Numbered from the stretch's first letter, positions 27,083 to 41,115 are shown. The stretch: 64,000 nucleotides of DNA from Escherichia coli (GCF_024502345.1 NZ_JALDNN010000003.1); one strand, 5' to 3'. Program-made: numbers and translations. Notes: generated by a model from the sequence alone, not told the origin.

Positions 27083-28486
27083 TTAAATCGGTTTCTTCCC
27101 AAATATCTCTTCAGAGCGTGACTGAAGTTTCACCAGGGCATTGAACATATCGTCCTGATCCAGGGAACGCTGGGATTTCTTCGTCGTGGGAGCTTTACGC
27201 CTGCGAGAAGGGCCGTCTCCGGATGGTACGGATTGCGACCGGTTATTATCCCGCTCGGCCTGGACCAGCTGCGCCATTTCCAGGGCCCGCCCCAGACGTT
27301 TGTTATCCACAATGGCCCCCTGATCGATTTCAGAAAGCTTGTCATAGGTGGAGTAGGGAAGTGATACGCCATTAAGCCGGAGCTCTTTATGTCCATCCGG
27401 GTAATGCCAGACATCGATGTATTTACCAATCGCCCGACGACTGAATTCGCTGTCTTCAATCAGATAAAGGACTTTGTCGTATTGCACTGTGAGTGATTTC
27501 GACACTTTACGAGCTTCACGCCAGTTAAATACCATATCAAGATCGTCATCGACATCCAGTTCCCGATGAACATCAAACTCCTGGCGAGGCGCTTTTGCGA
27601 AACGACGGTTGTAATCGTTCATGAACTCTTCGGCAAATGCGTTCGCAGCTTCCATGGAACTGATGCCCTGGAGCCTGAGCTCCTTGACCAGTCGGTCCTG
27701 AAGCGTCAGGTGCGCCCGTTCAACGCGGCCTTTGGCAGCACTGGTTTCTGCACAAATGGTCTGAATGTTCAGTTCATGCATCGCACGGCCAAACTGGGTA
27801 TCGCCGTCGCCGCCGGTTGCATTTTTATTGTTGATCCTGAATACGCTGGCTTTGTCGCTGTACAGCGCAAGCGGTTTGCCATGTTTTTCAATATAGCCCC
27901 GGGTCGCTTCAAAATAGGTGAAAGTAGACTCAGATTTCACGAAAAGAAGCTGCATTAAACGACTGGTTGCGTCATCAACGTAAACCAGTGCCGTACACTT
28001 AGGTCCCCGATTTTCAAACCAGTGGTGGTCGCAGCCGTCGATTTGTATGAGTTCACCGGCACAGGCACGGCGGTAACGAGGTTGCTGAATTTTTGGCGCA
28101 CGTTGCTTACGTGGGACCCACAGACTGGCCTGAGTCATCAGCTTACGGACGGTTTCTTTGGAAAGATGAACACCGTGCACCTCAGACAGTTTTTCACAGG
28201 CCAGCGTCGGACCGAAATCGTTATAGCGTTCGCGAATAATGTTCAGCGCGTATGCGGCCAGTCCCTGAGGCAACTGGTTGTTACTGGATTTACCACGACG
28301 GCGGCTGGTCATGCCAATCGGACCATCTTCACGATAACGCGCAAGCAGACGACGGCACTGACGGTCGGAGATACCAAGCCGCTGAGCTGCCATTTGTGTT
28401 GTCAGACGCCGGTCGATGACATCCTGAATGATTTTGAGTCGGTTAACTTCATCCAATGTGAAAAACTCCGCTGCGAGAGCCGTCAT
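27083..28486 (-). CDS. DDE transposase (integrase-core type, ISNCY/IS1202-like; family tentative)
   Basis: 467 aa: N-terminal HTH (LGISDRQCRRLL), DDE core (IQIDGCDHHWF...VYVDDATSRL...ETSAAKGRVERAHLTLQDRL). Confidence 0.8.
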   Translation of the reverse strand: MTALAAEFFTLDEVNRLKIIQDVIDRRLTTQMAAQRLGISDRQCRRLLARYREDGPIGMTSRRRGKSSNNQLPQGLAAYALNIIRERYNDFGPTLACEKLSEVHGVHLSKETVRKLMTQASLWVPRKQRAPKIQQPRYRRACAGELIQIDGCDHHWFENRGPKCTALVYVDDATSRLMQLLFVKSESTFTYFEATRGYIEKHGKPLALYSDKASVFRINNKNATGGDGDTQFGRAMHELNIQTICAETSAAKGRVERAHLTLQDRLVKELRLQGISSMEAANAFAEEFMNDYNRRFAKAPRQEFDVHRELDVDDDLDMVFNWREARKVSKSLTVQYDKVLYLIEDSEFSRRAIGKYIDVWHYPDGHKELRLNGVSLPYSTYDKLSEIDQGAIVDNKRLGRALEMAQLVQAERDNNRSQSVPSGDGPSRRRKAPTTKKSQRSLDQDDMFNALVKLQSRSEEIFGKKPI

Positions 28487-28780
28487 GGTAATCCTTACTT
28501 GATTATACACGCCGGACATCTTAACTTAGCCATTATCGGACATTACAACTTTGCTACTACAGACTTTGTCAAAGCAAGTTTAAAATGTCACCTCTTTGTG
28601 CAAGATAGAAAGGGCACTTTCAGCCTATGTAATCATATTAATGTGACTGCTGCGTTATCCCACTCAACCAATTAATAAAGCAAAAGTTAAATATGAAAGA
28701 CTGGAATAAAAATATAACGAAAACATCTTAATATGGAAATATCTGTGTCAACGGGATCTTTAGTTATTGAATATCTGGTT

Positions 28781-29587
28781 CTAAATAGGTTCTACATTCA
28801 ACGGGAAGGGAAACCAAATATCTATATGTTTTTTATAAATACCATTACGTGGCAAACAACAATCTGCATATTTTTTTAAAGAATCTCCACATGGACAAAT
28901 ATTTTCTGGCGATAATACTCCATCATGTTCTTTCGCCTTAAATCTCCAGGTCGTAATATTGAAAATTTGATGTGGGGATTGTATGTATTTGACAACACTA
29001 ATTAAAGTTGAATAGTTATAATGATCACCATCATTGGAGAAAAAAACACTACATTTGTTAACGGGATTACTAACTATGTCATAAGTAATTAATTCAAAAT
29101 CGATCACTTCATCAAAGCAAAGAACTCCATTATAAAGTTTATTTTTAACATGACCACAATCATTAATAAAACTACGGGTTGTATTACATACTGAACATTT
29201 CACTTCTTTTATTATTTCACGAGAACTACCGAAGATTTTATATGGGAATAACGCCTGCCAATTACATACCATTCTCGCTAAGAAGTTAACACCATAGAAA
29301 TTAACCTCAGGCAGAAACTCATTATTTTCTTTAATATGTATTAAATCTATTTCTATCCTTTCAAGTTCTACCCATGCTTCATAAAAATCACCTCTTGTAA
29401 GTAAATTAATGACTTGAATATATTTTAAATGGGCTAGTAAAATTGTTTTGTATAAAAACAATCTGTTTGATTCATTATTCAAGCTCAAGGATTGAGCTTT
29501 TTTTAACTCAGCATTAAGATAATCAAGAATAGCACTATCTTCTTGAGTAATACACATCCAACGCTTTAACTTTTCGTGAATATTCAT
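28781..29587 (-). CDS. candidate defence operon gene D: SEC-C / zinc-finger protein (268 aa)
   Basis: C-terminal CPCGDSLKKYADCC (SEC-C-like metal-binding motif) plus CSVCN...CGH; AT-rich. Confidence 0.6.
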   Translation of the reverse strand: MNIHEKLKRWMCITQEDSAILDYLNAELKKAQSLSLNNESNRLFLYKTILLAHLKYIQVINLLTRGDFYEAWVELERIEIDLIHIKENNEFLPEVNFYGVNFLARMVCNWQALFPYKIFGSSREIIKEVKCSVCNTTRSFINDCGHVKNKLYNGVLCFDEVIDFELITYDIVSNPVNKCSVFFSNDGDHYNYSTLISVVKYIQSPHQIFNITTWRFKAKEHDGVLSPENICPCGDSLKKYADCCLPRNGIYKKHIDIWFPFPLNVEPI

Positions 29588-29604
29588 AATATCTATATAG
29601 ATTT

Positions 29605-30051
29605 TTATTTGATTTTGTTAATTACTTTTAAAACATCGTCTACTTTTCCAGAAACAGTGTATTTCACATGTTTTCCTGATTTATTTTTTTTAATTATAGA
29701 GACTTTAACGTCTATATCTCTAGTTCCAAAGTTATCAATTTTTTTCTGAATATAATTTGAAACAAGATTTACTAAAAAAGGTATCATTACTGATGTGGCA
29801 AAGAAAGTGCCTAACGCTAACGTTATACTGTTTAATTGCAGGTACGAAACACCATTAGAATCTCCGTACACTTTAACATTAGAATGTGATTGCTTGGTGA
29901 ACTGGAAAAAATCCAGTGCATTACCTCCAGTAATTTTTGAACTATCAAAAACGATCGCAATCTCATCATCTTGAGGTTCATATGAAGAAATGATTTTTAC
30001 CTCTTCATCTTCATCACTCATTTCACTCAAAGTAATGGGGTTCATTCTCAA
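29605..30051 (-). CDS. candidate defence operon gene C: small single-TM protein (148 aa)
   Basis: Acidic N-terminus, hydrophobic segment ITLALGTFFATSVMIPFLVNLV, basic C-terminus; 17 bp upstream of gene D. Confidence 0.5.
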   Translation of the reverse strand: MRMNPITLSEMSDEDEEVKIISSYEPQDDEIAIVFDSSKITGGNALDFFQFTKQSHSNVKVYGDSNGVSYLQLNSITLALGTFFATSVMIPFLVNLVSNYIQKKIDNFGTRDIDVKVSIIKKNKSGKHVKYTVSGKVDDVLKVINKIK

Positions 30052-30197
30052 CTCCTTGTTTTATATTTTTACATTCAAATTTTACTATACGACTGGTTAA
30101 TTGCTCCTGTCCAACACACACCAGAGTTCATATGCTTAGCATACAAGGGACCAATGCCAGTAGCGACAGGCTAGTGTGTCAAAAAACCACATGAAGA

Positions 30198-31559
30198 TCA
30201 ATCTCCTGCGGAAAATTTGGCCGCAATTAGTTTCATTGTCCTTTCCATGCCTTGATAAACTGTCGCATCTGTAATGTTTAACCTTGCGAGTTCCTTAAGT
30301 ATTCTAGCTTTGTTTCTGATCACTATTTTTTCTACTTTAAACTCTTGCATAGCATCATCAGGGTTTGAAACTAAATCGGGATAAACAGCATTATTCCCAA
30401 ATAATAAGAATGCACCTGACTGTGATGACATCCTTTCATTATTATTTCTTCCTTTAACGAAAATTAACCTTTCCAAATCTGATGGTATAATTACATCTTT
30501 AAAATAAGGTTTTTCATCTTTAATGTAATGTATGAGTTTTTGACAAGCTTCAGTTTTATTGAAAGCCTCCTTGTCCATTTTACAATCCAGCTGATCTTTC
30601 AGTGTTTGACTTAGCATTGATATATTTGATATGCAACTTACTGTATCAGAGTCAAAGAATTTTATACGATCCCTTTTTGTTTTGAAAATAATAACATGTC
30701 CATCAACCTCATTTGTATTTTCATTATTACTAATGTCGCAACAAGCGAAATACAGAGCGATTAGTGGATTTGATGTTATATCCAACAAACGAGTTGGTAG
30801 TCCGTAGTGTTGCATCCTTACTAACTTGTCTAGCATTGTTTTATCATCAACAAACTCAGTTGGCCTTGCTGTTAGGGCTTCACGGACTAAATTTGATTCA
30901 CTGTGCAAATGCTTGAAGTTACCTTTTTTGTTTTTCCTGAAAACTGATGGAGCCAACTCGTAAGATACATCAGAATGTCCACGATAAAATATTTCTGCAT
31001 CTTCTTCATGATCTTGTTCTAAAACACGCGCCATGAAACTTTGAACATTATCTATTATTGGGTAGTTATCAACTTCATCAGGAAGTGCTTCAGTAGGAGG
31101 AAGTGGTGTACTTCTTGTCGTTATATTTAGAAGTGCTAATGTTTGATTTAAATCACGTGCTTTTATTCCCCAGTGAGTCCGTTTCAGCCCATATGCACCT
31201 AATTCTAAAGCTGTTTGATATAACTCTTTGTTTATCACTACGACATCATCTTGTGAGTGAGTGATTCTGAAATCAAACTCAACATTTTTGTTAACTGTTC
31301 GTAGATTTGAAATTACACCAAGTCGCAAAGTAATGTATTCAACATTGTCTCGGGAATAAAGTTCTGACATAAAAAGCGTAGGTAATTTCTCAATATAAGA
31401 TAATGCTTTATCATTCAAAGGCGTTAACTTCAACCGGATGTCATCAGAGGTGCCTTCTAACATACGTGATATAGGAAAATCACAACTCCCACTAACCCGT
31501 TCATACATGGGCCAATGTTCAAAATAGTCAGGTTCTCCGCCCATAATTAGATTAAACAT
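30198..31559 (-). CDS. candidate defence operon gene B: FRG-domain protein (453 aa)
   Basis: FRG-domain signature block IFYRGHSD...LAPSVFR...RMQHYGLPTRLLDITSNPLIALYFAC...SSQSGAFLLFG preceded by about 190-aa unknown N-domain. Confidence 0.7.
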   Translation of the reverse strand: MFNLIMGGEPDYFEHWPMYERVSGSCDFPISRMLEGTSDDIRLKLTPLNDKALSYIEKLPTLFMSELYSRDNVEYITLRLGVISNLRTVNKNVEFDFRITHSQDDVVVINKELYQTALELGAYGLKRTHWGIKARDLNQTLALLNITTRSTPLPPTEALPDEVDNYPIIDNVQSFMARVLEQDHEEDAEIFYRGHSDVSYELAPSVFRKNKKGNFKHLHSESNLVREALTARPTEFVDDKTMLDKLVRMQHYGLPTRLLDITSNPLIALYFACCDISNNENTNEVDGHVIIFKTKRDRIKFFDSDTVSCISNISMLSQTLKDQLDCKMDKEAFNKTEACQKLIHYIKDEKPYFKDVIIPSDLERLIFVKGRNNNERMSSQSGAFLLFGNNAVYPDLVSNPDDAMQEFKVEKIVIRNKARILKELARLNITDATVYQGMERTMKLIAAKFSAGD

Positions 31560-31572
31560 TAAAACTAAATCC

Positions 31573-32376
31573 TTATATTTTACTTAATGAATTATTTACA
31601 ATCCAATCAATTGCGCCAGAGGTGCGAATCCAAGGCTTTATATTATGATTCACATAATAAATGGCTTCATCCATTCCACCTAACGTGATATATCCACTGT
31701 TAGACTTGATCTGTAATCTGCACTTCGATAACAAGCCGGGGATGTGTCTATTAGAATCAATCGCAGCTTTAGCGATATCATCGGCATCCGGGGATGACTG
31801 TCGGTAGGCGAGTAGGGCGCGTGTATACTGAAAAAACGAACGCATATCCCCAGGATAATCGTCCAGTAGCAAGGCCAGATCATCCACCATTTCAAGCTCA
31901 AGGTAATAGTTCGCTAATAAATGACGAATCCCCTGGTTATCGTTCGGGTTGAGCTTCAGCATTTCGCGGCTATGAGCCATAGCCGGATAAAAATTACCAG
32001 ACTCCCATAAGGCCTCAGCCAAAGCTGCTTTTGCTCTCATATATGGACGTGTTTCGACAAATCCCCAGAAACGTCCTGCGAACTCCTGAAAATCCTCGCC
32101 AAGTGCAATGCTGGCTGCGTACAAAGCAGTCTCCAGCTTCCCGATTTTTGACTCAGGAGGTTCTTGAGATATCTCGCAGTAGAATGAGTATGCGTCAGCA
32201 CAGAGCGGGGATTTCTTGATAGCTTTTCTGATGAGTTTCAGCACAACTTCCAGGTCATCATTTTCCCAGGCATCGAACATGAACTCCTGAGCCGCAACCA
32301 GATCTAGATGTAATTGCTCAGAGCTGACAGCAGTTTTATACAAATCAACGCGCTTTGTAGTCGGGAATTTAATCAT
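31573..32376 (-). CDS. candidate defence operon gene A: helical-repeat (TPR-like) protein (267 aa)
   Basis: Alpha-helical repeat character (AMAHSREMLKLNPNDNQGIRHLLANYYLELEMVDD); 13 bp upstream of gene B. Confidence 0.55.
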   Translation of the reverse strand: MIKFPTTKRVDLYKTAVSSEQLHLDLVAAQEFMFDAWENDDLEVVLKLIRKAIKKSPLCADAYSFYCEISQEPPESKIGKLETALYAASIALGEDFQEFAGRFWGFVETRPYMRAKAALAEALWESGNFYPAMAHSREMLKLNPNDNQGIRHLLANYYLELEMVDDLALLLDDYPGDMRSFFQYTRALLAYRQSSPDADDIAKAAIDSNRHIPGLLSKCRLQIKSNSGYITLGGMDEAIYYVNHNIKPWIRTSGAIDWIVNNSLSKI

Positions 32377-32434
32377 CTCAAGTATCCTTTTGGGGACTCA
32401 CTGTTCCGGTACTTTGCAGCACTGATGGTCGATT

Positions 32435-33793
32435 CTATCGCTTTGAACTTGCCACAAACAAGCTCGGGTCTGCCAGAACGGGATTGATAGCCCGGAGCTG
32501 TTCCTGGATGCGCACCTGAGCCTTACGGCTGGGCGATTTTTTGCTTCGTTCCCGTTTGCCTTCGCTTTCCCGCTCATCCTGTTTTACCTGAGCCAGTCGG
32601 AGTACAGTCCCGAGACGTTTGTTATCAACAATCTGCCCCTGGTCGACACAGGCCAGCTTATCAAATGCCTGGCACTTAAGGCTCCGGTGCCCATAGAGGA
32701 AGGCGAGGGTGCCATCGGGATAATCCAGTACTTTAATTTTTTCACCGGCAAGACGGCTATTTTCTTCTGTGGTGTCCATGAGATAAAGGATCTTATCGTA
32801 CTGGAAGGTCAGTGATTTCGACACGGTACGAACATCATGCCAGGCAAAGATGTCTCTTAATTCATCGGGGCTTTCCTGCACCGGACGATGCAAATCTTTG
32901 GGGAACTTAGCCGGTCGTGAAAACCGGCTGTTAAAGTCAGCGATGAAAGTGGCAAGCCAGGCATTTGCGGCCTCAATGCCGGTTATACCTTCCAGACGCA
33001 TTTCTTTGATCAGCCGATCCTGAAGTGTCTGATTCGCACGTTCCACGCGGCCTTTAGCTTCAGAGCTGTTGGCACAAATAAGCTCGATTGCCAGGTCATA
33101 AAGCACACGTCCGAACTGGGTAACGGTGGTATTGCGTTTCTCCGGACCACTGACGCGAAATATTGCGTGTTTGTCACTGTACAGCGATACCGGCTTCCCA
33201 TGCTGCTCGATGTATTCCCGGGTTGCCAGCATGTAGTCAAAGGCTGTTTCTGACTCGCTGAACCGCAAATGCATCAGACGCCCGGTGGCATCATCGATAA
33301 AGACCAGCAGGCAGCATTTTGGCGCACGGCCTTCAAACCAGTCATGGTGGGAGCCGTCGATCTGGATAAGTTCACCCAGACAATCACGCCGATGTCGGGG
33401 TTGATAAACCCGTGACTTACGGCGAGCATGCGGGACCCAGAGTCCGTCAGACGTCATCCAGTTGCGGACGGTCTCGATTGAAAGCCGGATATTATGGCGC
33501 TCTCTGAGTTTTTCTGCGGCCAGTGTGGGCCCAAAGTCACTGTAGTTTTCACGTATCAGCGTGAGTACTCGTAGTTTGAGAGATTCGGTCAACCGGCGGT
33601 TGCTGGGCTGGCCGCGTTTGCGGCTGACAAGTCCTTCAGCACCAGAAACTCGGTAACGATTGATAAGTCGTTGCGCCTGACGTTCTGAAATGCCAAGCTG
33701 TGATGCTGCATCACGACGGCGTAGACGCTTTTCACAAACTGCCTGTATCACCGGTAGGCGGTGGATCTCTTTATCTGACATGGTCACCAACAT
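32435..33793 (-). CDS. DDE transposase (integrase-core type, ISNCY/IS1202-like; family tentative)
   Basis: 452 aa; same architecture as 27083-28486 protein but clearly a different sequence (LGISERQAQRLI...IQIDGSHHDWF...). Confidence 0.8.
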   Translation of the reverse strand: MLVTMSDKEIHRLPVIQAVCEKRLRRRDAASQLGISERQAQRLINRYRVSGAEGLVSRKRGQPSNRRLTESLKLRVLTLIRENYSDFGPTLAAEKLRERHNIRLSIETVRNWMTSDGLWVPHARRKSRVYQPRHRRDCLGELIQIDGSHHDWFEGRAPKCCLLVFIDDATGRLMHLRFSESETAFDYMLATREYIEQHGKPVSLYSDKHAIFRVSGPEKRNTTVTQFGRVLYDLAIELICANSSEAKGRVERANQTLQDRLIKEMRLEGITGIEAANAWLATFIADFNSRFSRPAKFPKDLHRPVQESPDELRDIFAWHDVRTVSKSLTFQYDKILYLMDTTEENSRLAGEKIKVLDYPDGTLAFLYGHRSLKCQAFDKLACVDQGQIVDNKRLGTVLRLAQVKQDERESEGKRERSKKSPSRKAQVRIQEQLRAINPVLADPSLFVASSKR

Positions 33794-34053
33794 GCGTTGA
33801 GTCCCTTAGAATTGCATTCAGTTTAGCTTACTCTAAGGTGACGTTTCTATCTGGATAAAAAGTGACATTACTAAATGGTTCTAACAATCTTGGTGCGCAT
33901 AACAAAGATTATGTTAAATATGGTGGGTTTGCTCTTAAGTTCATGAGTCCCTCTCTTTCAGGAACTTACCGATGAATCAGTCAGTTGCCAAAGTTTAGTT
34001 GTGGACTTACGATGACTTCATAACACAAAAATTACGGGGCATCCGCTAAGTTC

Positions 34054-35577
34054 ATGGCATATACCATCTTACATTTATCGAGGAACAACCAGAGAACTCA
34101 TCTCATAGTTGATGATGTGACTACCCTACCGGTCATGTTCGCCACAATTTATGGAATGAATGAACTGAGCAAGAAAAGCCTAGGGACTCAAGAAAACATT
34201 TTGTGTTCGCTGCGTTTCTTTTACGTCTATTACTATAAGAAGCATAAACAAACATTTGACTACGATTTCTATCGGTCTGGCTACAATATCTCCTGTTTTA
34301 TCAGGGAGCTTGATGGCTTCTTTACTTATCTGCTCGGGAAGCAGCACCTGAGTGACGAGACCGACATAATCTCTAACGGGTTTTTACATTCGGCACTCTC
34401 CAGAACCAACAAGTCCACCTATGGTAACCACGTCAGAAACGTTGGCCGATTCCTTAAGTATCTCAACTATAGATATATGAATCTGGCATACCAAGATATG
34501 TCACCTACTGAAGCTCACCAGATTAACCAGGCGAACCATAGAGATCTCGCTGCCAGAATTAAGGTCTTCAATAGAGTTGAAGTATCCAGGAACGAACCAG
34601 CTCACCGATACAAAAGTATCACCAGCCAGCAAAGTATCGAACTAACGAACATGTTAATCCCCTCCACTCCTGAATTTTCAGATATCGAGACCGGCGAACT
34701 ATTCACGGCCGTGGTTAATCCCCAAAACCCATTCGATTCAGGATTTCAACAATACCGTAACTACCTTATTCACCGGTTAATGTTTAACTATGGCTTACGT
34801 GTTGGTGAAGTTCAATTGTTGATGAAGGATTGCGTGGGGCCAACCCTTCCAGACTCACGAGGTAACATTCGTTTCATCCTGATTGTACAAAATCTACCAG
34901 ATGATGTAGTTGACCCAAGGAAACAACAACCTTCACTCAAGACTGAGCATTCACAGCGACAAATCGAACTAACCGAAGATGACTTCATTATGTTTACCAT
35001 TTATATGGAGCAATATCGGTCCCCATTATTTGAAGAGAAAAAAATTGTTGACCATGAGTTTGTTTTTATTAAAGGCTCAGGTAGGTTAACTCCATTAACT
35101 TACGATGCAATTCGAACATTTTATAAGGAAAAAATTGATCCGGCATTCATTGCCCTATTCCCTCATTATCGTACGAAAAGTAATAAAAATATTAATAATA
35201 TGGTTAATATAACACCACACGTTGGGCGGCATACTTGGGCTAATATCACTCTTGAGTTTATTTACAATAGTCTCCTGAGTGAATCACTAATACTGGCGCA
35301 AGACTATGGTATTCGAGCAAGGATGAATGGAGTACTTGAACCAGCTATTGAACAACTTCGTGCTTTAGGCGGCTGGTCACTGACCAGTAAAGTTCCATTA
35401 AGATATGCCAAGCGGTTTATTGAAGTGGTGAGTAACCAGAGCAACTATAAGCGTACGAAACATTCAGATATGCATTTAGCTTCCCCAGAAACAAACATTT
35501 CGCAAAGAAAAACCTCCAACTTGCTAGAAGATAATGTTTATGACGAAGACTTCACATTCAAAGATCTATTCAACTGA
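34054..35577 (+). CDS. tyrosine recombinase (phage-integrase family), trio gene 1
   Basis: C-terminal catalytic block HVGRHTWANITL...LGGWS...RYA (R..H..R..Y pattern); AT-rich. Confidence 0.7.
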   Translation: MAYTILHLSRNNQRTHLIVDDVTTLPVMFATIYGMNELSKKSLGTQENILCSLRFFYVYYYKKHKQTFDYDFYRSGYNISCFIRELDGFFTYLLGKQHLSDETDIISNGFLHSALSRTNKSTYGNHVRNVGRFLKYLNYRYMNLAYQDMSPTEAHQINQANHRDLAARIKVFNRVEVSRNEPAHRYKSITSQQSIELTNMLIPSTPEFSDIETGELFTAVVNPQNPFDSGFQQYRNYLIHRLMFNYGLRVGEVQLLMKDCVGPTLPDSRGNIRFILIVQNLPDDVVDPRKQQPSLKTEHSQRQIELTEDDFIMFTIYMEQYRSPLFEEKKIVDHEFVFIKGSGRLTPLTYDAIRTFYKEKIDPAFIALFPHYRTKSNKNINNMVNITPHVGRHTWANITLEFIYNSLLSESLILAQDYGIRARMNGVLEPAIEQLRALGGWSLTSKVPLRYAKRFIEVVSNQSNYKRTKHSDMHLASPETNISQRKTSNLLEDNVYDEDFTFKDLFN

Positions 35578-37210
35578 GAGCGGTATCACCGGGGGTGGTT
35601 TTTTTAAAACCCATCCCCTTCACTTTACAAAAGAACAGCTTGAATGGATTGAAAATATTCAGCTCCCTAAACGATTGTTTTTAATAAGTGCAACAGAATT
35701 TGATGACCGATATTTATATCTACATGATGATTGGCGTTACAGATTCTCAGGTAATAATTTGGCTATATTATTCTCTACTGGTAAATACTTTTGTGATTTA
35801 TCACCAGTTTCACTCAAGCTCTTGAAATACTTAACGATCGCGTACATTAATGAGAACTCGGCAAGTGTTGCTGATAAATTTGCTCAGTTTGTCGCAACAA
35901 CTTTCAAACAAATTGAGGTTATCACTCGCGAAAGCCTTATTGAAAAAATGCAAATGCTAGTTGCGAAGACTGAGCGAAATCACTCAGACAGCAGTCAGTT
36001 CTATTACACCCTCTATGCATTACGAAAACTTGATCGTAATGGATTCTTCGAAAGTAAGGATGACAGTGATGAGCTGGAAGATCTATTGCTGGAAGTGCCA
36101 CGCCCTAGGAACAATAACTGGGCTCGCTACCAAAACCTAGACCTCGTTATACCAGAAGAAGTATGCCTAATGATAGAAAATGGCATTCAACGTTGGGCAT
36201 CTAAGCTATGTCCAAAAATTGATGTTGAAGAAAATAAAAACATTCATCTGGAAACTGTAAGGAAAACCATTAAAATTGATACATTACGGGACTGCATTAT
36301 TATTGGCATAGTTTATTACATTGGGGCCAGACCTGTACAGATCGGTAAACTTTCCGGAGGCGATTTTATCGTTGATACCGAGAATAAGTACGGGATGCGT
36401 TATTCAGTACTTGTGCCATATGCCAAAAAGTCAAAACTAACTATCGATCGAGTTCGAGTTGCAATTCCGGAAGAACTTGGAAAGTTAATCTTACTGTATA
36501 AGTACCTAGTTGGAATTGGTGATACCGACCCGATGTTTTCCATCATAGTATCTTCAATGAAGATGGTGGAAGCGTCATTAAAGAAAATGCTTTTCAGATT
36601 TTCACCACAAGAGATTCAGGAGGCAGTAAAAAACGATGATTATCAACTACCTGTATATACCGCAAGCCTCTTTCGTCACAACGTTGGTCACTCAATGGCA
36701 ATGAGTGGTGCCAGTGCTCCTGAGATAGCTTATATATTGGGACAATCCTCTTATGTTGTTGCAGATCGATACATTGCAGCCACCCCTGAGCTGGCTGATA
36801 TTCGTGAGGCAGCTTTGGGTCGCAACCCTGTGTTTAAGAACATGATGGCACTCATGTTGACTGGGAATTTAGTTCACAGCAGCGAATGGGAAGGTCGCAA
36901 TGTTGCAGGGTCAATTGGTGGGCAACTTCATTACCATCTCGGTGGATGTAATTATGAAGAAGACATTTGCCCCTTTGCACAGGGTCGTGGATGTTACGGT
37001 TGCCTGTATTTCAAACCATTTATAGATGGAAACCACAAAAAAGTATTTCTTTCGCTGAATGATGAAATCCAAAATGTTCGTGATGTTGCCGATGATGCTG
37101 GCATTTTAAATCATCCACTTCTCAAGGAATTAGTGCGGCGGAAAGAGCATGTAAATCAGGTTATGGCTCGCATTGAAATGGCAAAGGCCGGAGGACTATT
37201 TAATCGATGA
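35534..37210 (+). CDS. tyrosine recombinase, trio gene 2
   Basis: LFRHNVGHSMAMSGASAPEIAYILGQSSYVVADRYIA catalytic block; overlaps gene 1 by 44 nt and gene 3 by 4 nt (ATGA). Confidence 0.7.
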   Translation: MFMTKTSHSKIYSTESGITGGGFFKTHPLHFTKEQLEWIENIQLPKRLFLISATEFDDRYLYLHDDWRYRFSGNNLAILFSTGKYFCDLSPVSLKLLKYLTIAYINENSASVADKFAQFVATTFKQIEVITRESLIEKMQMLVAKTERNHSDSSQFYYTLYALRKLDRNGFFESKDDSDELEDLLLEVPRPRNNNWARYQNLDLVIPEEVCLMIENGIQRWASKLCPKIDVEENKNIHLETVRKTIKIDTLRDCIIIGIVYYIGARPVQIGKLSGGDFIVDTENKYGMRYSVLVPYAKKSKLTIDRVRVAIPEELGKLILLYKYLVGIGDTDPMFSIIVSSMKMVEASLKKMLFRFSPQEIQEAVKNDDYQLPVYTASLFRHNVGHSMAMSGASAPEIAYILGQSSYVVADRYIAATPELADIREAALGRNPVFKNMMALMLTGNLVHSSEWEGRNVAGSIGGQLHYHLGGCNYEEDICPFAQGRGCYGCLYFKPFIDGNHKKVFLSLNDEIQNVRDVADDAGILNHPLLKELVRRKEHVNQVMARIEMAKAGGLFNR

Positions 37211-38355
37211 CTACACAAATAACAATACGTAATAAACAGGCGGATAATCTTCTTATTTATATAGAGAAATATAAAGCAAAATTTGAAGAGCGTCTTGTTG
37301 CCTACAATGCTGTTGGACAACTGGAGTGGAATGCCGGTTCCTGGCGTTTTGGTGAGAAAGGTGTTGCATGGCTTAAAGAAACAAAAGATCGCGGCTTTAA
37401 GTGGGACGAAGTTTCTAGTCGTATTAAGGGGCTCTCACAAATGAATATTTCTTCGGAATTTCAGGATTTTATGCGAGCTTATCACATGCATCTGGTGTGT
37501 ATCATTGGCGGATTACCATCAGGTTCTACACTAGACAAACCATTACAGGTCATGAAGCGCTGGTATTGGGAAATGGTAAATAAAACAGGTCAAACGCATC
37601 CAATGTATCTGACTTCCGATATTATTCATGCAGCGATGGAGCGGCATCATGAGAATTCTGACAGTCCTGATAATGTCAGTGACTATTGCGATATTGCAGT
37701 AAAGGCCATTGCTTTACTACGTCAATATGATCTTTTCTTAGTTAATATTGAAGTCAAAAATAAGTATCCTTATCGAAATGGTTCTAACAGCACTAAAGAA
37801 AGGAAGAAAGCGCAAGAAGCCACCCCTGATCAAACTGATGATGAAAGACTCATATCAATCCGTGCATTTATGTGTGTTATTGAGTTGATCGCTTTAGCTG
37901 AGAATAGTTATCAGCGTATCTTTTACAATATGTTGTTACTCACAATTATTTGCGGTTTCCGTTTCCAGGAAATAATGTTGCTGAAAATGACTTCTTTGGT
38001 TAAGCGAGAAATTACGGATAAAGATAAACGTCAGCACGCAATAGATCAAGACTGGCCTACTTACAGGTTGGGTATTGAGTATCTTGGTGCAAAAAAGGCT
38101 GGATGGCGGATCCATTGGCTGGCGCCAAGCACTTATTCTGTCGTTGAGATGATTTATAAATCTGTTCGAGAATTGACCTCTGGGTTCCGTAAAACGATTC
38201 AGGGCTTCAGAGATTCTAATTTCACTAATATGCTCCCAGGTAAGATCGCTGATTTTCCTGATGAATGGATTGAGCAAAATTATCTTGAAGACATCATGTT
38301 TAGTGGTTCTGGTGGCTCCAGGAATGATCTTGGAAAGAGTATTCGGAATTCCATT
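37207..38355 (+). pseudogene. trio gene 3, 3'-truncated by IS903 (ORF-track stop at 38370 lies inside IS903 IR)
   Basis: Reading frame runs straight into IS903 terminal repeat; no native C-terminus or catalytic block present. Confidence 0.6.
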
Positions 38356-39412
38356 GGCTTTGTTGAATAAATCAGATTTCGGGTAAGTCTCCCCCGTAGC
38401 GGGTTGTGTTTTCAGGCAATACGCACGCTTTCAGGCATACCTGCTTTCGTCATTTTGTTCAGCGCTCGTACCAGGGCCATAGCCTCTGCAACCTGACCAT
38501 CGTAGTCACGCAGTGTCAGTGAACCCCCGAACAGCTGTTTTACCCGGTACATCGCCGTTTCCGCTATCGAGCGACGGTTGTAATCTGTTGTCCATTTCCA
38601 CCGCGCATTACTCCCGGTCATTCGCTGATTAGCCACTGCACGGTTACGGTCTGCATATTCACCGGGCCAGTAACCCGCACCTTTTCGGGGAGGGATAAGC
38701 GCGCTGATTTTCTTACGCCGCAGTTCATCGTGACATAGCCGGGTATCGTAAGCGCCATCGGCGGCGGCTGACCTGATTTTCCGGTGGGTTTGCCGGATTA
38801 ACCCGGGGAAGGCCTCTGAGTCCGTAACGTTGTTCAGCGACAGGTCAGCGCAGATGATTTCATGTGTTTTACTGTCAACGGCGAGATGCAGCTTACGCCA
38901 GATACGGCGGCGTTCCTGGCCATGCTTTTTGACTTTCCACTCGCCTTCACCGAAGACCTTCAGCCCGGTGGAATCAATTACCAGGTGTGCGATTTCACCC
39001 CGGGTGGGCGTTTTGAAACTGACATTAACCGACTTTGCCCGCCTGCTGACACAGCTGTAATCCGGGCAGCGTAGCGGAACGTTCATCAGAGAAAAAATGG
39101 AATCAATAAAGCCCTGCGCAGCGCGCAGGGTCAGCCTGAATACGCGTTTAATGACCAGCACAGTCGTGATGGCAAGGTCAGAATAGCGCTGAGGTCTGCC
39201 TCGTGAAGAAGGTGTTGCTGACTCATACCAGGCCTGAATAGCTTCATCATCCAGCCAGAAAGTTATGGAGCCACGGTTGATGAGGGCTTTATTGTAGGTG
39301 GGCCAGTTGGTGATTTTGAACTTTTGCTTTGCCACGGAACGGTCTGCGTTGTCGGGAAGATACGTGATCTGATCCTTCAACTCAGCAAAAGTTCGATTTA
39401 TTCAACAAAGCC
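38356..39412 (-). mobile_element. IS903-like element (IS5 family), 1057 bp
   Basis: 18-bp terminal IRs GGCTTTGTTGAATAAATC at both ends; no flanking 9-bp duplication (AATTCCATT vs GATTTTGGA). Confidence 0.9.
38412..39335 (-). CDS. IS903 transposase
   Basis: (V)AKQKFKITNWPTYNKALINRGSITFWLDDEAIQAWYES... about 307 aa; GTG start at 39335 (ORF track ATG at 39380). Confidence 0.9.
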   Translation of the reverse strand: MAKQKFKITNWPTYNKALINRGSITFWLDDEAIQAWYESATPSSRGRPQRYSDLAITTVLVIKRVFRLTLRAAQGFIDSIFSLMNVPLRCPDYSCVSRRAKSVNVSFKTPTRGEIAHLVIDSTGLKVFGEGEWKVKKHGQERRRIWRKLHLAVDSKTHEIICADLSLNNVTDSEAFPGLIRQTHRKIRSAAADGAYDTRLCHDELRRKKISALIPPRKGAGYWPGEYADRNRAVANQRMTGSNARWKWTTDYNRRSIAETAMYRVKQLFGGSLTLRDYDGQVAEAMALVRALNKMTKAGMPESVRIA

Positions 39413-39909: not shown

Positions 39910-41115
39910 TCATGCCTGGCCCTTGTTCTGCTTTTCAGCATGTTTACGCAGGTACTGCGTCAGATCGCCGTGAGCTTCACAAATGGCATTCATCTCGTCA
40001 TTGGTCAGCACCAGAGTGTAAGTATCGTCGCTGAGGTTCTTAGCGGCCCGTTGTTTAGCTTCTTCCGCAATACGCGAAAACAGCGGGATTGCCGTGTCCG
40101 CAATCGTCGTCACGGTCTTTTTGTTCAGTACGCTGGAGACCGACACAGCTTTAGGCTCTGGCGTTTTGACCGGGTCTTTCATCTGCGGTGCCGGGGTCCT
40201 TTCCGGGGTCGGCTCCGGGTTAGTGCCCGCACTCCCGTCCACCAGCTGCGGTGGGGTGGTCTCATCGTTAGTACCTTCGCCGGACGTTTGTTCAGTCACG
40301 GTGGTTTCCGGGGGGGTCGCATTTGCGTCCGGCACGATGGCTGCTTTCGGCTTCATCGCTGCATCAATGTTGCCAGCTTTGACGAATTTCAGGGTTTTGG
40401 CCGTCGCCTTACCATAAACATCAATGGCTTTGGTGATGTTGTTGACCGCTTCATCGCCGCTGTAAAGGTATTCATCCAGCGCGACATACATACTCACTTC
40501 ACCCTTCACCAACATGGCCTGGAGGGCTTCAGGCAGATCCAGGACGCGAACCATCTGACGCAGGTGCTGTTCGGTTTTACCGCGACGCTTCGCCAGTTCA
40601 GCGAACGTTTTGGGTTCTTCCGCGTCTTCAACCATCCGTTTGATGGAGAGCGCCTCAGCTACGACAGACAGAGCCAGATTTGAGTTACCGTCCAGCGTAA
40701 ACTGCTCGGCACTGGCGCGGCTACCGCGAAACTCCTCGCATCGAATTAACGTGATCAATTCACGCCCTTCATCTGCCAGCTCGATGTTTGCCATCGCGAC
40801 GGCACGGATACGGCATGCTCCCTGGCGCAGGACCGGACGGCCATTCAGAATCTGTACGACAATAGCTTGTACGCTTAAAGGATCGATCTTGTAGGACTCT
40901 TTCAGGCTGTTCAGGTGGGCTACCACGTCAGGTAATGAGTAGTAACTCTCCCCAATGCCAGCAGTACGGGTGTTAAACCCCTCTTCCTCTTCGACCACTG
41001 CCGGGTTAATGACTAGACCATTGCTTTTGCGTGCGCCGTTACCGGTACGCTCCAGGTAGGTGCGCAGGCTGATATCGTTGTTAGCGGTTTTTACATCATT
41101 TTCGACAGTGGACAT
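39910..41115 (-). CDS. ParB/KorB-like DNA-binding protein (orphan, no adjacent ParA)
   Basis: GxxRxRA-type ParB box (RQGACRIRAVA), HTH (KTFAELAKRRGKTEQHLRQMVRVL), low-complexity P/T/E linker; assignment tentative. Confidence 0.5.
   Translation of the reverse strand: MSTVENDVKTANNDISLRTYLERTGNGARKSNGLVINPAVVEEEEGFNTRTAGIGESYYSLPDVVAHLNSLKESYKIDPLSVQAIVVQILNGRPVLRQGACRIRAVAMANIELADEGRELITLIRCEEFRGSRASAEQFTLDGNSNLALSVVAEALSIKRMVEDAEEPKTFAELAKRRGKTEQHLRQMVRVLDLPEALQAMLVKGEVSMYVALDEYLYSGDEAVNNITKAIDVYGKATAKTLKFVKAGNIDAAMKPKAAIVPDANATPPETTVTEQTSGEGTNDETTPPQLVDGSAGTNPEPTPERTPAPQMKDPVKTPEPKAVSVSSVLNKKTVTTIADTAIPLFSRIAEEAKQRAAKNLSDDTYTLVLTNDEMNAICEAHGDLTQYLRKHAEKQNKGQA

What the first reader, a model, noticed from the sequence alone, without database searches (positions are those of the whole stretch)
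34054..39412. Trio of overlapping tyrosine-recombinase genes (RIT-like) inactivated by IS903
Three consecutive plus-strand genes overlap by 44 nt and 4 nt (ATGA). Genes 1 and 2 carry clear tyrosine-recombinase catalytic blocks (HVGRHTW...LGGWS; LFRHNVGHS...YIA). Gene 3 runs directly into the IS903 terminal repeat and has lost its C-terminus. Recombinase-in-trio elements are a distinctive mobile-element class; this one is AT-rich, unusually large (507 and 558 aa), and decayed. IS903 lacks a 9-bp target duplication, so a deletion or rearrangement accompanied it.
Basis: partly seen in the sequence, partly recalled or inferred. Interest (0 to 1): 0.55.

Follow-up and report, generated by a model that had tools for sequence, protein, structure and literature searches.

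The report
Broken GInt-type island at a dif-like site
The three overlapping recombinase genes are the front end of a GInt-type integrative island, not a RIT element. Its relatives insert beside the bacterial chromosome-unlinking site dif, and this plasmid copy was crippled when IS903 removed everything downstream.

Summary
Three co-oriented ORFs (34054-35577, 35534-37210, 37207-38355) overlap by 44 and 4 nt. The third is cut at codon 383 of 845 by a 1057-bp IS903 (38356-39412) that has no 9-bp target duplication.

The RIT reading is only partly right. Intact, 99.9-100% identical copies on E. coli plasmids and chromosomes have a conserved fourth small gene, about 9 kb of cargo (type I restriction-modification) and a defined right end. 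Profiles of genes 1, 2 and 3 match GinA, GinB and GinC of a curated GInt, gene for gene (HHalign 99.5%, 95% and 98%). They do not match SE proteins. All three keep invariant R..H-x-x-R..Y catalytic residues.

An unexpected feature is a perfect Xer site, 135 bp upstream of gene 1 (33892-33919: GGTGCGCATAA-CAAAGA-TTATGTTAAAT). In 33 of 51 related loci from Escherichia to Acinetobacter and Vibrio, the module sits beside dif in the same orientation. In E. coli the element lies between dif and yneL. It is flanked by TATGTTAAATCA/TAAGTTAAATCA, so the crossover falls inside the XerD arm and dif stays intact. I found no report of dif targeting by GInts.

The window copy is an immobile relic, hemmed in by xrs-targeting IS1202-family elements on the left and IS903 on the right.

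The parts
33892..33919 (+). dif-like Xer site (xrs) at the left border of the element: XerC arm GGTGCGCATAA (33892-33902), 6-bp centre CAAAGA, XerD arm TTATGTTAAAT (33909-33919) facing gene 1
   Evidence: Both arms are identical to E. coli K-12 dif as read in L059. It is the only such site in the window. The same site, in the same orientation, sits upstream of the module in 33 of 51 related loci. An xrs-targeting IS abuts it at 5 bp.
33920..34053 (+). left-end leader of the element, with the conserved motif TTAAGTTCATGAG at 33935-33947 (17 bp after the XerD arm); probable recombinase binding site and promoter region
   Evidence: The motif [AT][AT]NTTCA[TC] lies 16-18 bp after the XerD arm in all 33 loci that have the site. 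An inverted copy (ATGAACT) lies 15 bp inside the right ends. Binding and promoter roles are inferred.
34054..35577 (+). gene 1, ginA-like tyrosine recombinase, 507 aa, intact
   Evidence: R249, K296, H389, R392, W441 and Y451 are conserved in 30-32 of 32 homologues. HMM against Sakai GinA gives E 3e-26, and HHalign 99.5% over 375 columns. phrog_1 integrase E 3.5e-9. 100% identical to WP_000331940.1.
35534..37210 (+). gene 2, ginB-like tyrosine recombinase, 555-558 aa, with a C-terminal four-cysteine cluster, intact
   Evidence: R266, R381-H382, Y413 and C472/C479/C487/C490 are invariant in 35 homologues. NCBIfam NF041502 E 2.6e-24; the same model scores Sakai GinB at 320 bits. HHalign against GinB 95%.
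37207..38355 (+). gene 3, ginC-like recombinase-fold gene, truncated: the first 383 of 845 codons; the catalytic H-x-x-R...Y block and the Cys cluster are lost
38356..39412 (-). IS903 (transposase ORF 38412-39380 on the - strand) that truncates gene 3; no target duplication
   Evidence: Different IS903 positions or simple insertions occur in other copies (L001, L003).
28567..33886 (-). context: 5.3-kb IS1202-family IS (annotated ISNCY/ISLad2-like) with four passenger ORFs; its IRL lies 5 bp (ATCTT) from the XerC arm
   Evidence: The geometry is identical to the xrs-targeting ISAba32 subgroup (bioRxiv 10.1101/2022.12.17.520857). Ends are TGTCAAAG... and ...TTCTAACA. It is 100% identical to L001 1053-6350, although the gin genes there are only 90.6% identical.
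28002..28561 (-). context: 5' fragment of an older IS1202-family IS (the type that abuts the xrs in p22Q34-1), now displaced by the insertion above
   Evidence: 93% identical to L003 11123-11688. IRL ...GCTACTACA followed by GACTT, as in L003.

Best explanation
The trio is the ginA-, ginB- and ginC-like recombination module of a GInt-type integrative island (Genomic Island with three Integrases). The closest relatives of its third gene outside the enterobacterial copies are mostly in Vibrionaceae, and it is AT-rich. Intact copies are about 15.7 kb. They consist of a left end, four overlapping genes (507, 555, 845 and 167 aa), cargo (HTH regulator, M48 peptidase, type I restriction-modification) and a right end ...TTTATGAACT-N15-ATAAGTTAAAT.

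The element and its more distant relatives integrate at the outer part of the XerD-binding arm of dif on chromosomes, or of dif-like Xer sites on plasmids. attL keeps a complete Xer site directly upstream of ginA. attR carries only an XerD-arm-like 11-mer. The exchange falls within GTTAAAT(C).

By analogy with tested GInts, all four gene products would be needed to excise the island as a circle and to re-insert it. In this window, IS903 with an adjacent deletion removed the catalytic half of ginC, the fourth gene, the cargo and the right end. The copy therefore cannot move. Only the Xer site, ginA and ginB remain intact.

Shown here: anatomy, homology, conserved catalytic residues, insertion site and junctions. 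Inferred: that the element's own recombinases rather than XerCD catalyse the exchange, and the roles of the AAGTTCAT motifs.
For: - **Intact copies.** L003 plasmid p22Q34-1, L060 pE16EC0715-3, L068 E. coli chromosome at hipA-dif, and L012 E. cloacae chromosome.
- **Module conservation.** The four-gene module is conserved in 46 genome loci and more.
- **Homology to a curated GInt.** Gene-for-gene profile matches to GInt ECs_3512-3510, which is listed in Additional file 10 of PMC10214605: HMM E 3e-26, 2e-5 and 5e-11 with no cross-hits; HHalign 99.5%, 95% and 98%. NF041502 links gene 2 and GinB.
- **Active sites.** Catalytic residues are invariant in all three proteins. Gene 3 has a recombinase fold.
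- **Xer site.** Present upstream of the module in 33 of 51 loci, with host-specific XerC arms.
- **Insertion mapped.** E. coli against K-12 gives 12-bp imperfect direct repeats inside the XerD arm. The same ends occur on plasmid L062, and attP-like tandem junctions occur in L063 and L049.
- **Independent support for the site.** xrs-targeting IS1202-family elements abut the site in the window, L001, L002, L003, L012 and L062.
- **Published function.** GInt genes ginABCD are each essential for excision and integration, and GInts are flanked by 10-17-nt imperfect repeats (PMC5385486).
Against: - The fourth gene shows no detectable similarity to GinD (or to Srap) by HMM or HHalign. It has no Pfam domain. 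The parallel rests on position, size and a predicted helical or coiled-coil character.
- The protein accessions were not found in the published GInt lists, but the held copy of that file is truncated.
- Similarity to the reference Pseudomonas GInts could not be tested directly; only the E. coli Sakai GInt could.
- No experiment shows excision or integration of this lineage.
- The catalytic block of gene 3 is modelled with low confidence (pLDDT below 50 for residues 512-618).
- The right end of the 100%-identical element is broken in L060 and L068 (...ATAAG|AGCC). Its intact form is seen only in a tandem junction (L063).
Confidence: 0.75

Rival explanations
1. It is an IMEX. The island is integrated and excised by the host XerCD recombinases acting at dif, as for CTX, VGJ and TLC phages, the gonococcal island or EcloIMEX elements. 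The three recombinase-like genes then have another role, such as control, directionality or resolution.
For: The element always lies beside dif or a dif-like site, and its right end carries an XerD-arm-like 11-mer. Filamentous prophages share the same dif in L007, L009 and L010. IMEX arrays at dif are well known (PMC5357621).
Against: attR has no XerC arm and no matching central region. The repeats lie in the outer XerD arm, 4-11 bp away from where XerD cuts. The four-gene module, with invariant active-site residues in three proteins, is conserved down to about 26-31% identity. Its homologues in GInts are each essential for integration and excision. A real EcloIMEX (blaIMI-1) shows no gin-like genes in its first ~17 kb.
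Confidence: 0.12
2. It is a RIT (recombinase-in-trio) element: a self-contained three-recombinase unit that moves on its own.
For: There are three adjacent co-oriented recombinase-type genes with short overlaps (4 nt between genes 2 and 3), and all have R..H-x-x-R..Y-type motifs. This is the RIT hallmark.
Against: RITs are about 3.5 kb with three ordinary-sized recombinases and no cargo, mainly in alpha- and beta-proteobacteria (PMC3414803). Here the trio alone spans 5.7 kb. A fourth gene and cargo are conserved, the ends are a Xer site and an 11-mer, and the genes match GinA/B/C specifically. Pfam Phage_integrase hits are only marginal (E 0.06 and 0.19).
Confidence: 0.04
3. It is a strand-biased circularizing integrative element (SE), a Tn554-type transposon or a 'gamma-mobile-trio' element. 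These are the other known systems that use two large tyrosine recombinases plus accessory proteins.
For: They share general features: large recombinases, a recombinase-fold protein, a small helical fourth protein, target specificity, a gammaproteobacterial (Vibrio) host range, and Cys clusters near the C-termini of SE IntB and Tfp.
Against: The SE gene order is intA-tfp-intB-srap. There was no HMM or HHalign signal to any of the four SE-Pda04Ya311 proteins. The NCBIfam GmtY model scores only 17-22 bits on the related module and on Sakai GinA/B, against a cut-off of 340, and did not appear at E <= 1 for the window's own genes. Tn554 was not compared by sequence.
Confidence: 0.05
4. It is a plasmid multimer-resolution system: a Xer-like site with dedicated recombinases encoded next to it.
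For: A perfect Xer-type site lies directly upstream of recombinase genes on a plasmid. Large plasmids often encode their own resolvase beside its site.
Against: The same module lies at chromosomal dif with cargo and a defined right end. It occurs next to Xer sites with different XerC arms and centres. The copy here is truncated.
Confidence: 0.03

Closest known systems
[quoted passage not shown] 2017, PMC5385486; catalogued by Idola et al. 2023, PMC10214605)
   Same: A 5' operon of three recombinase-type genes plus a small fourth gene, co-oriented and overlapping. Cargo follows gene 4. There is a short conserved 3' end and 10-17-nt imperfect direct repeats. The elements carry no transfer genes, and restriction-modification cargo is common. 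Genes 1-3 match GinA/B/C of the curated E. coli Sakai GInt position for position.
   Different: The proteins are larger (507/555/845 against 401/437/543 aa in Sakai). Gene 4 shows no detectable similarity to GinD. The target is the XerD arm of dif or plasmid Xer sites, not ssb, an ABC-transporter gene, an RNR gene or hupB. [quoted passage not shown] GinC here keeps the first arginine and the tyrosine.
IMEX elements (CTX/VGJ/TLC phages, gonococcal genetic island, EludIMEX-1/EcloIMEX)
   Same: They reside at dif, keep a functional-looking dif at one border, and form arrays with other dif-integrating elements.
   Different: IMEXs have no integrase and recombine through XerCD at the central region. 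This element carries three recombinase genes, and its junction repeats lie in the outer XerD arm. An EcloIMEX examined here lacks the module in the part seen.
RIT elements (RitA/RitB/RitC; Van Houdt et al. 2012, PMC3414803)
   Same: A trio of adjacent, overlapping tyrosine-recombinase genes, each with a plausible catalytic motif.
   Different: RITs are about 3.5 kb with no fourth gene and no cargo. They have different hosts and different ends (a 28-29-bp inverted repeat).
Strand-biased circularizing integrative elements (SE; intA-tfp-intB-srap) and Tn554 (tnpA-tnpB-tnpC)
   Same: Multi-recombinase, target-specific, non-conjugative elements with a small accessory protein. They have a 6-bp-type crossover and copy-out-like behaviour, and they live in Vibrio and other Gammaproteobacteria.
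   Different: The gene order differs, and there is no detectable sequence relation to SE proteins. Tn554 was not compared.
ISAba32 subgroup of the IS1202 family (xrs-targeting insertion sequences; Siguier et al., bioRxiv 10.1101/2022.12.17.520857)
   Same: They exploit the same Xer sites. The window shows two such IS stacked on the XerC side of the site that the island occupies on the XerD side.
   Different: These are DDE transposons, not part of the island. They are neighbours that confirm the nature of the site.

Membership tests
GInt | ginABCD-type operon at the 5' end: three recombinase-like genes plus one small gene, co-oriented | tested here: met
   Intact copies L003, L060, L068 and L012 and 40+ further loci have four genes of about 500/550/850/165 or 450/525/785/150 aa. 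The window keeps A, B and 45% of C.
GInt | Sequence relationship of genes 1-3 to GinA, GinB and GinC | tested here: met
GInt | Fourth gene homologous to GinD (small helix-loop-helix / coiled-coil protein) | tested here: inconclusive
   No HMM or HHalign similarity. Same position and size. A conserved N-terminal block (LHARLKAKG..GGLSTLS) and weak coiled-coil-type Pfam hits in the C-terminal half.
GInt | Cargo after gene 4, short 3' end, 10-17-nt imperfect direct repeats, site-specific insertion | tested here: met
   L058 against K-12: a 15.7-kb insert with TATGTTAAATCA/TAAGTTAAATCA. L062, L043 and L049 have the same right end. All of this is lost in the window.
GInt | Excision as a circle and integration requiring all four genes | not testable with these tools
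   Only indirect evidence: attP-like tandem junctions in L063 and L049.
RIT | Self-contained unit of about 3.5 kb with exactly three recombinase genes and no cargo | tested here: not met
   The trio spans 5.7 kb. A fourth gene and cargo are conserved, and the element is about 15.7 kb. The definition is from PMC3414803.
RIT | Proteins belong to the RitA, RitB and RitC subfamilies | not tested
   No RIT reference sequences were retrieved. There are only marginal Pfam Phage_integrase hits.
SE (strand-biased circularizing integrative element) | intA-tfp-intB-srap order and homology to Tfp/Srap | tested here: not met
   No hit of any of the four profiles to SE-Pda04Ya311 IntA, Tfp, IntB or Srap. 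The gene order also differs.
IMEX | No self-encoded recombinase; attP with XerC arm and central region; exchange at the central region by XerCD | tested here: not met
   There are three recombinase genes with conserved active sites. attR lacks an XerC arm and centre, and the repeats are confined to the outer XerD arm. Catalysis itself was not tested.
Tn554 family | tnpA-tnpB-tnpC homology; 6-7-bp core; att554-type target | not tested
   No reference sequence was available in the collections used.
gamma-mobile-trio (NCBIfam GmtX/Y/Z) | Score above the curated cut-off of the GmtY/GmtZ models | tested here: not met
   The window's genes 1-2 and the full-length gene 3 homologue from L001 show no GmtY hit at E <= 1. 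The related module's gene 2 (L058) and Sakai GinA/B score 17-22 bits against a cut-off of 340.

The most novel reading that the evidence does not exclude
This lineage and its roughly 30%-identical sister lineages form a previously undescribed clade of GInt-type islands. Their attachment site is the XerD-binding arm of dif. They insert with their own three-recombinase machinery just outside the Xer cleavage points, so the host keeps a working dif. They pile up there with filamentous-phage IMEXs and xrs-targeting IS1202 elements, swap core modules and cargo, and use plasmid Xer sites as stepping stones between Vibrionaceae, Aeromonas, Acinetobacter/Moraxellaceae and Enterobacteriaceae. That would make dif a shared landing pad for three mechanistically different kinds of mobile DNA.
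Probability: 0.45. Interest if true: 0.65.

Novelty: new variant of a known kind. Interest (0 to 1): 0.5.

Why it matters
**The copy in the window.** It is a dead relic and matters little.

**The family.**
- It shows that GInt-type islands are common on conjugative enterobacterial plasmids. They also occur at the E. coli terminus: 163 and 309 of 5,426 complete genomes for the two lineages.
- They carry defence cargo.
- They target one of the most conserved 11-mers in bacterial chromosomes without destroying it.

**What follows from this.**
- It gives a concrete, testable system for how multi-recombinase elements choose targets.
- It allows asking whether these elements interact with XerD or FtsK.
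- It would explain recurrent 'integrase, integrase, hypothetical' gene triplets next to Xer sites on resistance plasmids.
- It would improve annotation. The third and fourth genes are currently labelled 'hypothetical protein' in every annotated copy and database entry seen here.

Tried and rejected
- **Pfam.** Only marginal Phage_integrase hits for genes 1-2, and nothing for genes 3 and 4.
- **PDB sequence search of gene 2.** Nothing relevant.
- **PADLOC and PHROGs.** No defence-system assignment for the trio. Gene 2 matches phrog_24633, of unknown function.
- **Published SE/GInt tables.** Looking up the protein or replicon accessions gave no hits, but two of the files are truncated as held, so this is inconclusive.
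- **Upstream ISNCY transposase as a fifth core gene.** Its Vibrio homologue is 64% identical and in the same position. I rejected this because chromosomal copies lack it, and its placement fits the published xrs-targeting behaviour of that IS group.
- **EcloIMEX/EludIMEX as the same element.** The primary papers are not held. An IMI-1 EcloIMEX locus shows no gin-like genes and no good dif-like site in the 17 kb seen. Its last ~10 kb was not seen.
- **E. cloacae and Enterobacter loci.** They are not at setB-yeiP.
- **Literature searches.** Searches for dif plus GInt or three recombinases found nothing.
- **BLASTP of single proteins against Sakai GInt.** Only weak; profiles were needed.


Full report
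**1. The observation**

The window has three plus-strand ORFs at 34054-35577 (507 aa), 35534-37210 (558 aa) and 37207-38370. They overlap by 44 nt and by 4 nt (ATGA).

A complete 1057-bp IS903 lies at 38356-39412. It has 18-bp terminal repeats and is 99.8% identical to an annotated IS903B. The 9 bp on either side (AATTCCATT and GATTTTGGA) differ, so there is no target duplication.

The third ORF runs into the IS. Only its first 383 codons are native. The region has 40.1% G+C against 48.7% for the window.

**2. Intact copies show a four-gene module with cargo**

- Megablast against plasmids finds identical or 90%-identical copies in E. coli, Klebsiella, Citrobacter, Enterobacter and Raoultella plasmids.
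- In p22Q34-1 (L003) and pE16EC0715-3 (L060), gene 3 is 845 aa. It is followed, with an 8-nt overlap, by a 167-aa fourth gene.
- In pE16EC0715-3 and in the chromosome of E. coli PCP06173 (L068; 99.96% identical over 15.8 kb), the four genes are followed by an HTH gene, an M48 peptidase gene and a type I restriction-modification system.
- In K. pneumoniae pNDM1_085031 (L001), gene 3 is merely interrupted by an IS903-like element at another position.
- None of the missing DNA is elsewhere in the window, and there is only one IS903 copy. The IS903 event here therefore included a deletion or an exchange.
- This exact junction is in no PLSDB plasmid.

**3. What the proteins are**

Pfam is nearly blind to them: Phage_integrase E 0.06 and 0.19 for genes 1 and 2, nothing for genes 3 and 4.

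I built alignments of 32-43 homologues, taken from 46 loci found in species-representative genomes plus other loci. They show conserved active-site residues:

| Gene | Conserved residues |
|---|---|
| 1 | R249, K296, H389, R392, W441, Y451 |
| 2 | R266, K298, R381, H/Q404, Y413, plus C472/C479/C487/C490 |
| 3 | R253, K297, H510, R513, R536, Y545, plus a second four-cysteine cluster |

**4. Which known system it belongs to**

Two papers describe four-gene, multi-recombinase islands.

- GInts have ginA-ginB-ginC-ginD. Each gene is essential for excision and integration. Cargo follows ginD, and the island is flanked by 10-17-nt imperfect repeats (PMC5385486).
- SEs have intA-tfp-intB-srap (PMC10214605).

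I fetched a GInt curated by the second paper (E. coli Sakai ECs_3512-3509) and an experimentally active SE (SE-Pda04Ya311 on pAQU1).

|---|---|---|---|
| 1 | GinA | 3e-26 | 99.5% |
| 2 | GinB | 2e-5 | 95% |
| 3 | GinC | 5e-11 | 98% |
| 4 | GinD | no match | no match |

There are no cross-matches between positions and no match to any SE protein.

Gene 3 and GinC share the signature H-x-x-R-H-x-x-N-T-F...G-R...Q-N-x-x-Y-x-H. The NCBIfam model NF041502 scores Sakai GinB at 320 bits and gene 2 at 86 bits. Gene 4 matches neither GinD nor Srap. It shares only position, size and a conserved N-terminal block followed by a probably coiled-coil tail.

RIT elements are about 3.5-kb three-gene units without cargo (PMC3414803), and that architecture is not met here. 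The NCBIfam 'gamma-mobile-trio' model gives no hit at E <= 1 for the window's own genes. It scores only 17-22 bits on the related module and on Sakai GinA/B.

I therefore file the trio as the ginABC part of a distant GInt-type family.

**5. An unexpected feature: the left end is a Xer site**

Aligning the upstream regions of copies in different contexts shows that homology starts at a 28-bp sequence. In the window it is GGTGCGCATAA-CAAAGA-TTATGTTAAAT (33892-33919). Both arms are identical to E. coli dif as read from K-12.

Of 51 loci that carry the module, 33 have a dif-type site upstream. It is always on the same strand, with the XerD arm facing gene 1. Twenty of these lie within 300 bp of the first core gene. 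Most loci without the site lack enough upstream sequence or have slightly variant motifs.

In chromosomes the XerC arm is the host's own variant (ATTTCGCATAA in Acinetobacter, TTTTCGCATAA in Psychrobacter, AGTGCGCATTA in Vibrio), and the centre is usually TGTATA. This marks it as the resident dif.

A motif [AT][AT]NTTCA[TC] follows 16-18 bp after the XerD arm in all 33 loci. In the window it is TTAAGTTCATGAG at 33935-33947.

**6. Where exactly the element inserts**

E. coli 2015-01-2097 (L058) carries a sister element whose GinC is about 31% identical. It lies between hipA-dif and yneL. Compared with K-12, the insert is 15.7 kb:
- attL retains the whole dif;
- the flanking repeats are TATGTTAAATCA (left) and TAAGTTAAATCA (right).

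The right end reads ...TTTATGAACT-N15-ATAAGTTAAAT. That is an inverted copy of the left-end motif followed by an XerD-arm-like 11-mer. There is no XerC arm and no matching centre.

The same right end occurs in E. whittamii, in Acinetobacter towneri and on plasmid L062. In L063 and L049 a right end is followed directly by a left end, which gives an attP-like junction.

The exchange therefore falls within GTTAAAT(C), in the outer XerD arm. It does not fall at the borders of the central region, where XerC and XerD cut.

The window-type element sits at the same chromosomal dif in E. coli PCP06173. It also sits beside plasmid Xer sites with different XerC arms and centres: CAAAGA here, CGAGGA in L003 and L060, TCATTG in L001. 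This is what repeated insertion next to different Xer sites would produce.

**7. Independent support from the neighbours**

Immediately left of the site, 5 bp from the XerC arm, lies the IRL of a 5.3-kb IS1202-family element (28567-33886). Left of that lies the truncated IRL end of a second one (28002-28561).

A preprint on this IS family reports that the ISAba32 subgroup, including ISKpn21 on Klebsiella plasmids, inserts 5-6 bp from the XerC arm of Xer sites. Insertion is IRL first, often in tandem, and sometimes with passenger genes. The window reproduces that geometry exactly.

Related IS abut the site in L001, L002, L003, L012 and L062. In Vibrio and Aeromonas, filamentous prophages occupy the XerC side instead.

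**8. Mechanism, and what is inferred**

Shown:
- the gene-for-gene relation to ginABC;
- conserved catalytic residues;
- the four-gene-plus-cargo anatomy;
- insertion beside dif, with repeats in the XerD arm.

Inferred from published GInt genetics: the element's own proteins excise it as a circle and integrate it, and all four are needed. The location of the crossover and the lack of a XerC arm at attR argue against a classical Xer-dependent (IMEX) mechanism but do not exclude a helper role for XerD.

On this model the window copy is immobile. It lacks the catalytic half of ginC, gene 4 and the right end.

**9. Novelty**

Neither GInt paper, nor a 2024 preprint on GInts, mentions dif or Xer. 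Their listed targets are ssb, an ABC-transporter gene, an RNR gene and hupB. Searches of the held literature found no description of a three-recombinase island at dif.

[quoted passage not shown] Here gene 3 homologues occur in 113 plasmid records.

The Enterobacter 'EcloIMEX' islands are the nearest dif-linked islands in the literature. One examined here has no gin-like genes in the 17 kb seen.

The held library lacks most subscription journals, so prior description cannot be excluded.

**10. Verdict**

The finding is real. It is correctly recognised as a decayed multi-recombinase mobile-element module, but it is mis-assigned to RIT. It is a truncated GInt-type island. Its family-level trait, targeting the XerD arm of dif and of plasmid Xer sites, appears to be undescribed, and it raises the interest above that of an ordinary relic.

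Noticed in passing
window 28567-33886: A 5.3-kb IS1202-family (annotated ISNCY/ISLad2-like) insertion sequence carries four passenger ORFs. One is an FRG-domain gene (30198-31559, - strand) that matches the PADLOC candidate defence family PDC-S15 at E 1.7e-99. A 100% identical copy sits next to a gin module that is only 90.6% identical in K. pneumoniae pNDM1_085031, so the IS moves on its own and re-targets the same kind of Xer site.
   Followed up: partly
window 28002-28566: A truncated second IS1202-family IS (93% identical to the one abutting the Xer site in p22Q34-1) has its IRL 5 bp (GACTT) from the next IS. This is a stack of xrs-directed insertions. The 5-bp sequences flanking the inner IS (GACTT and ATCTT) are not a perfect duplication.
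   Followed up: partly
L060 18394-27728 versus L058 26002-35747: Two islands whose GinC proteins are only about 31% identical share 90-93% identical cargo (HTH, M48 peptidase, type I restriction-modification) and the same right end. This suggests core-module or cargo swapping between islands that occupy dif.
   Followed up: partly
L063 2050-2110; L049 12358-12420; L062 about 822 (- strand): Right ends are followed directly by a left end (attP-like tandem junctions). An orphan about 40-bp window-type left end lies beside a second Xer site on an IncHI1A plasmid.
   Followed up: no
L007 300-3000; L009 and L010 1-6500: Filamentous prophages (Zot, coat, Rep genes) lie on the XerC side of the same dif that the island occupies on the XerD side, in Aeromonas and V. 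parahaemolyticus.
   Followed up: no
L068 35776-44464; L003 19332-28112: The type 3 fimbrial cluster mrkABCDF with mrkHIJ lies just right of the island in both an E. coli chromosome and plasmid p22Q34-1. In L068 and L060 the island's right end is broken after ...ACACAACATAAG and fused to an alcohol-dehydrogenase gene fragment. How mrk came to travel with the island was not worked out.
   Followed up: no
window 39910-41115 (- strand) and beyond: To the right of IS903 lies a 401-aa ORF that looked ParB-like to me when I read its translation. No domain search was run on it. The window's plasmid type was not determined.
   Followed up: no
L064-L067 (Enterobacter chromosomes with blaIMI-1): The EcloIMEX island next to setB carries a large serine recombinase (Resolvase + Zn_ribbon_recom, 638 aa). 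No dif-like site with 6 or fewer arm mismatches was found in the one locus scanned (L064, 20.9 kb). The 'Xer-dependent' label in the literature may deserve a second look.
   Followed up: partly
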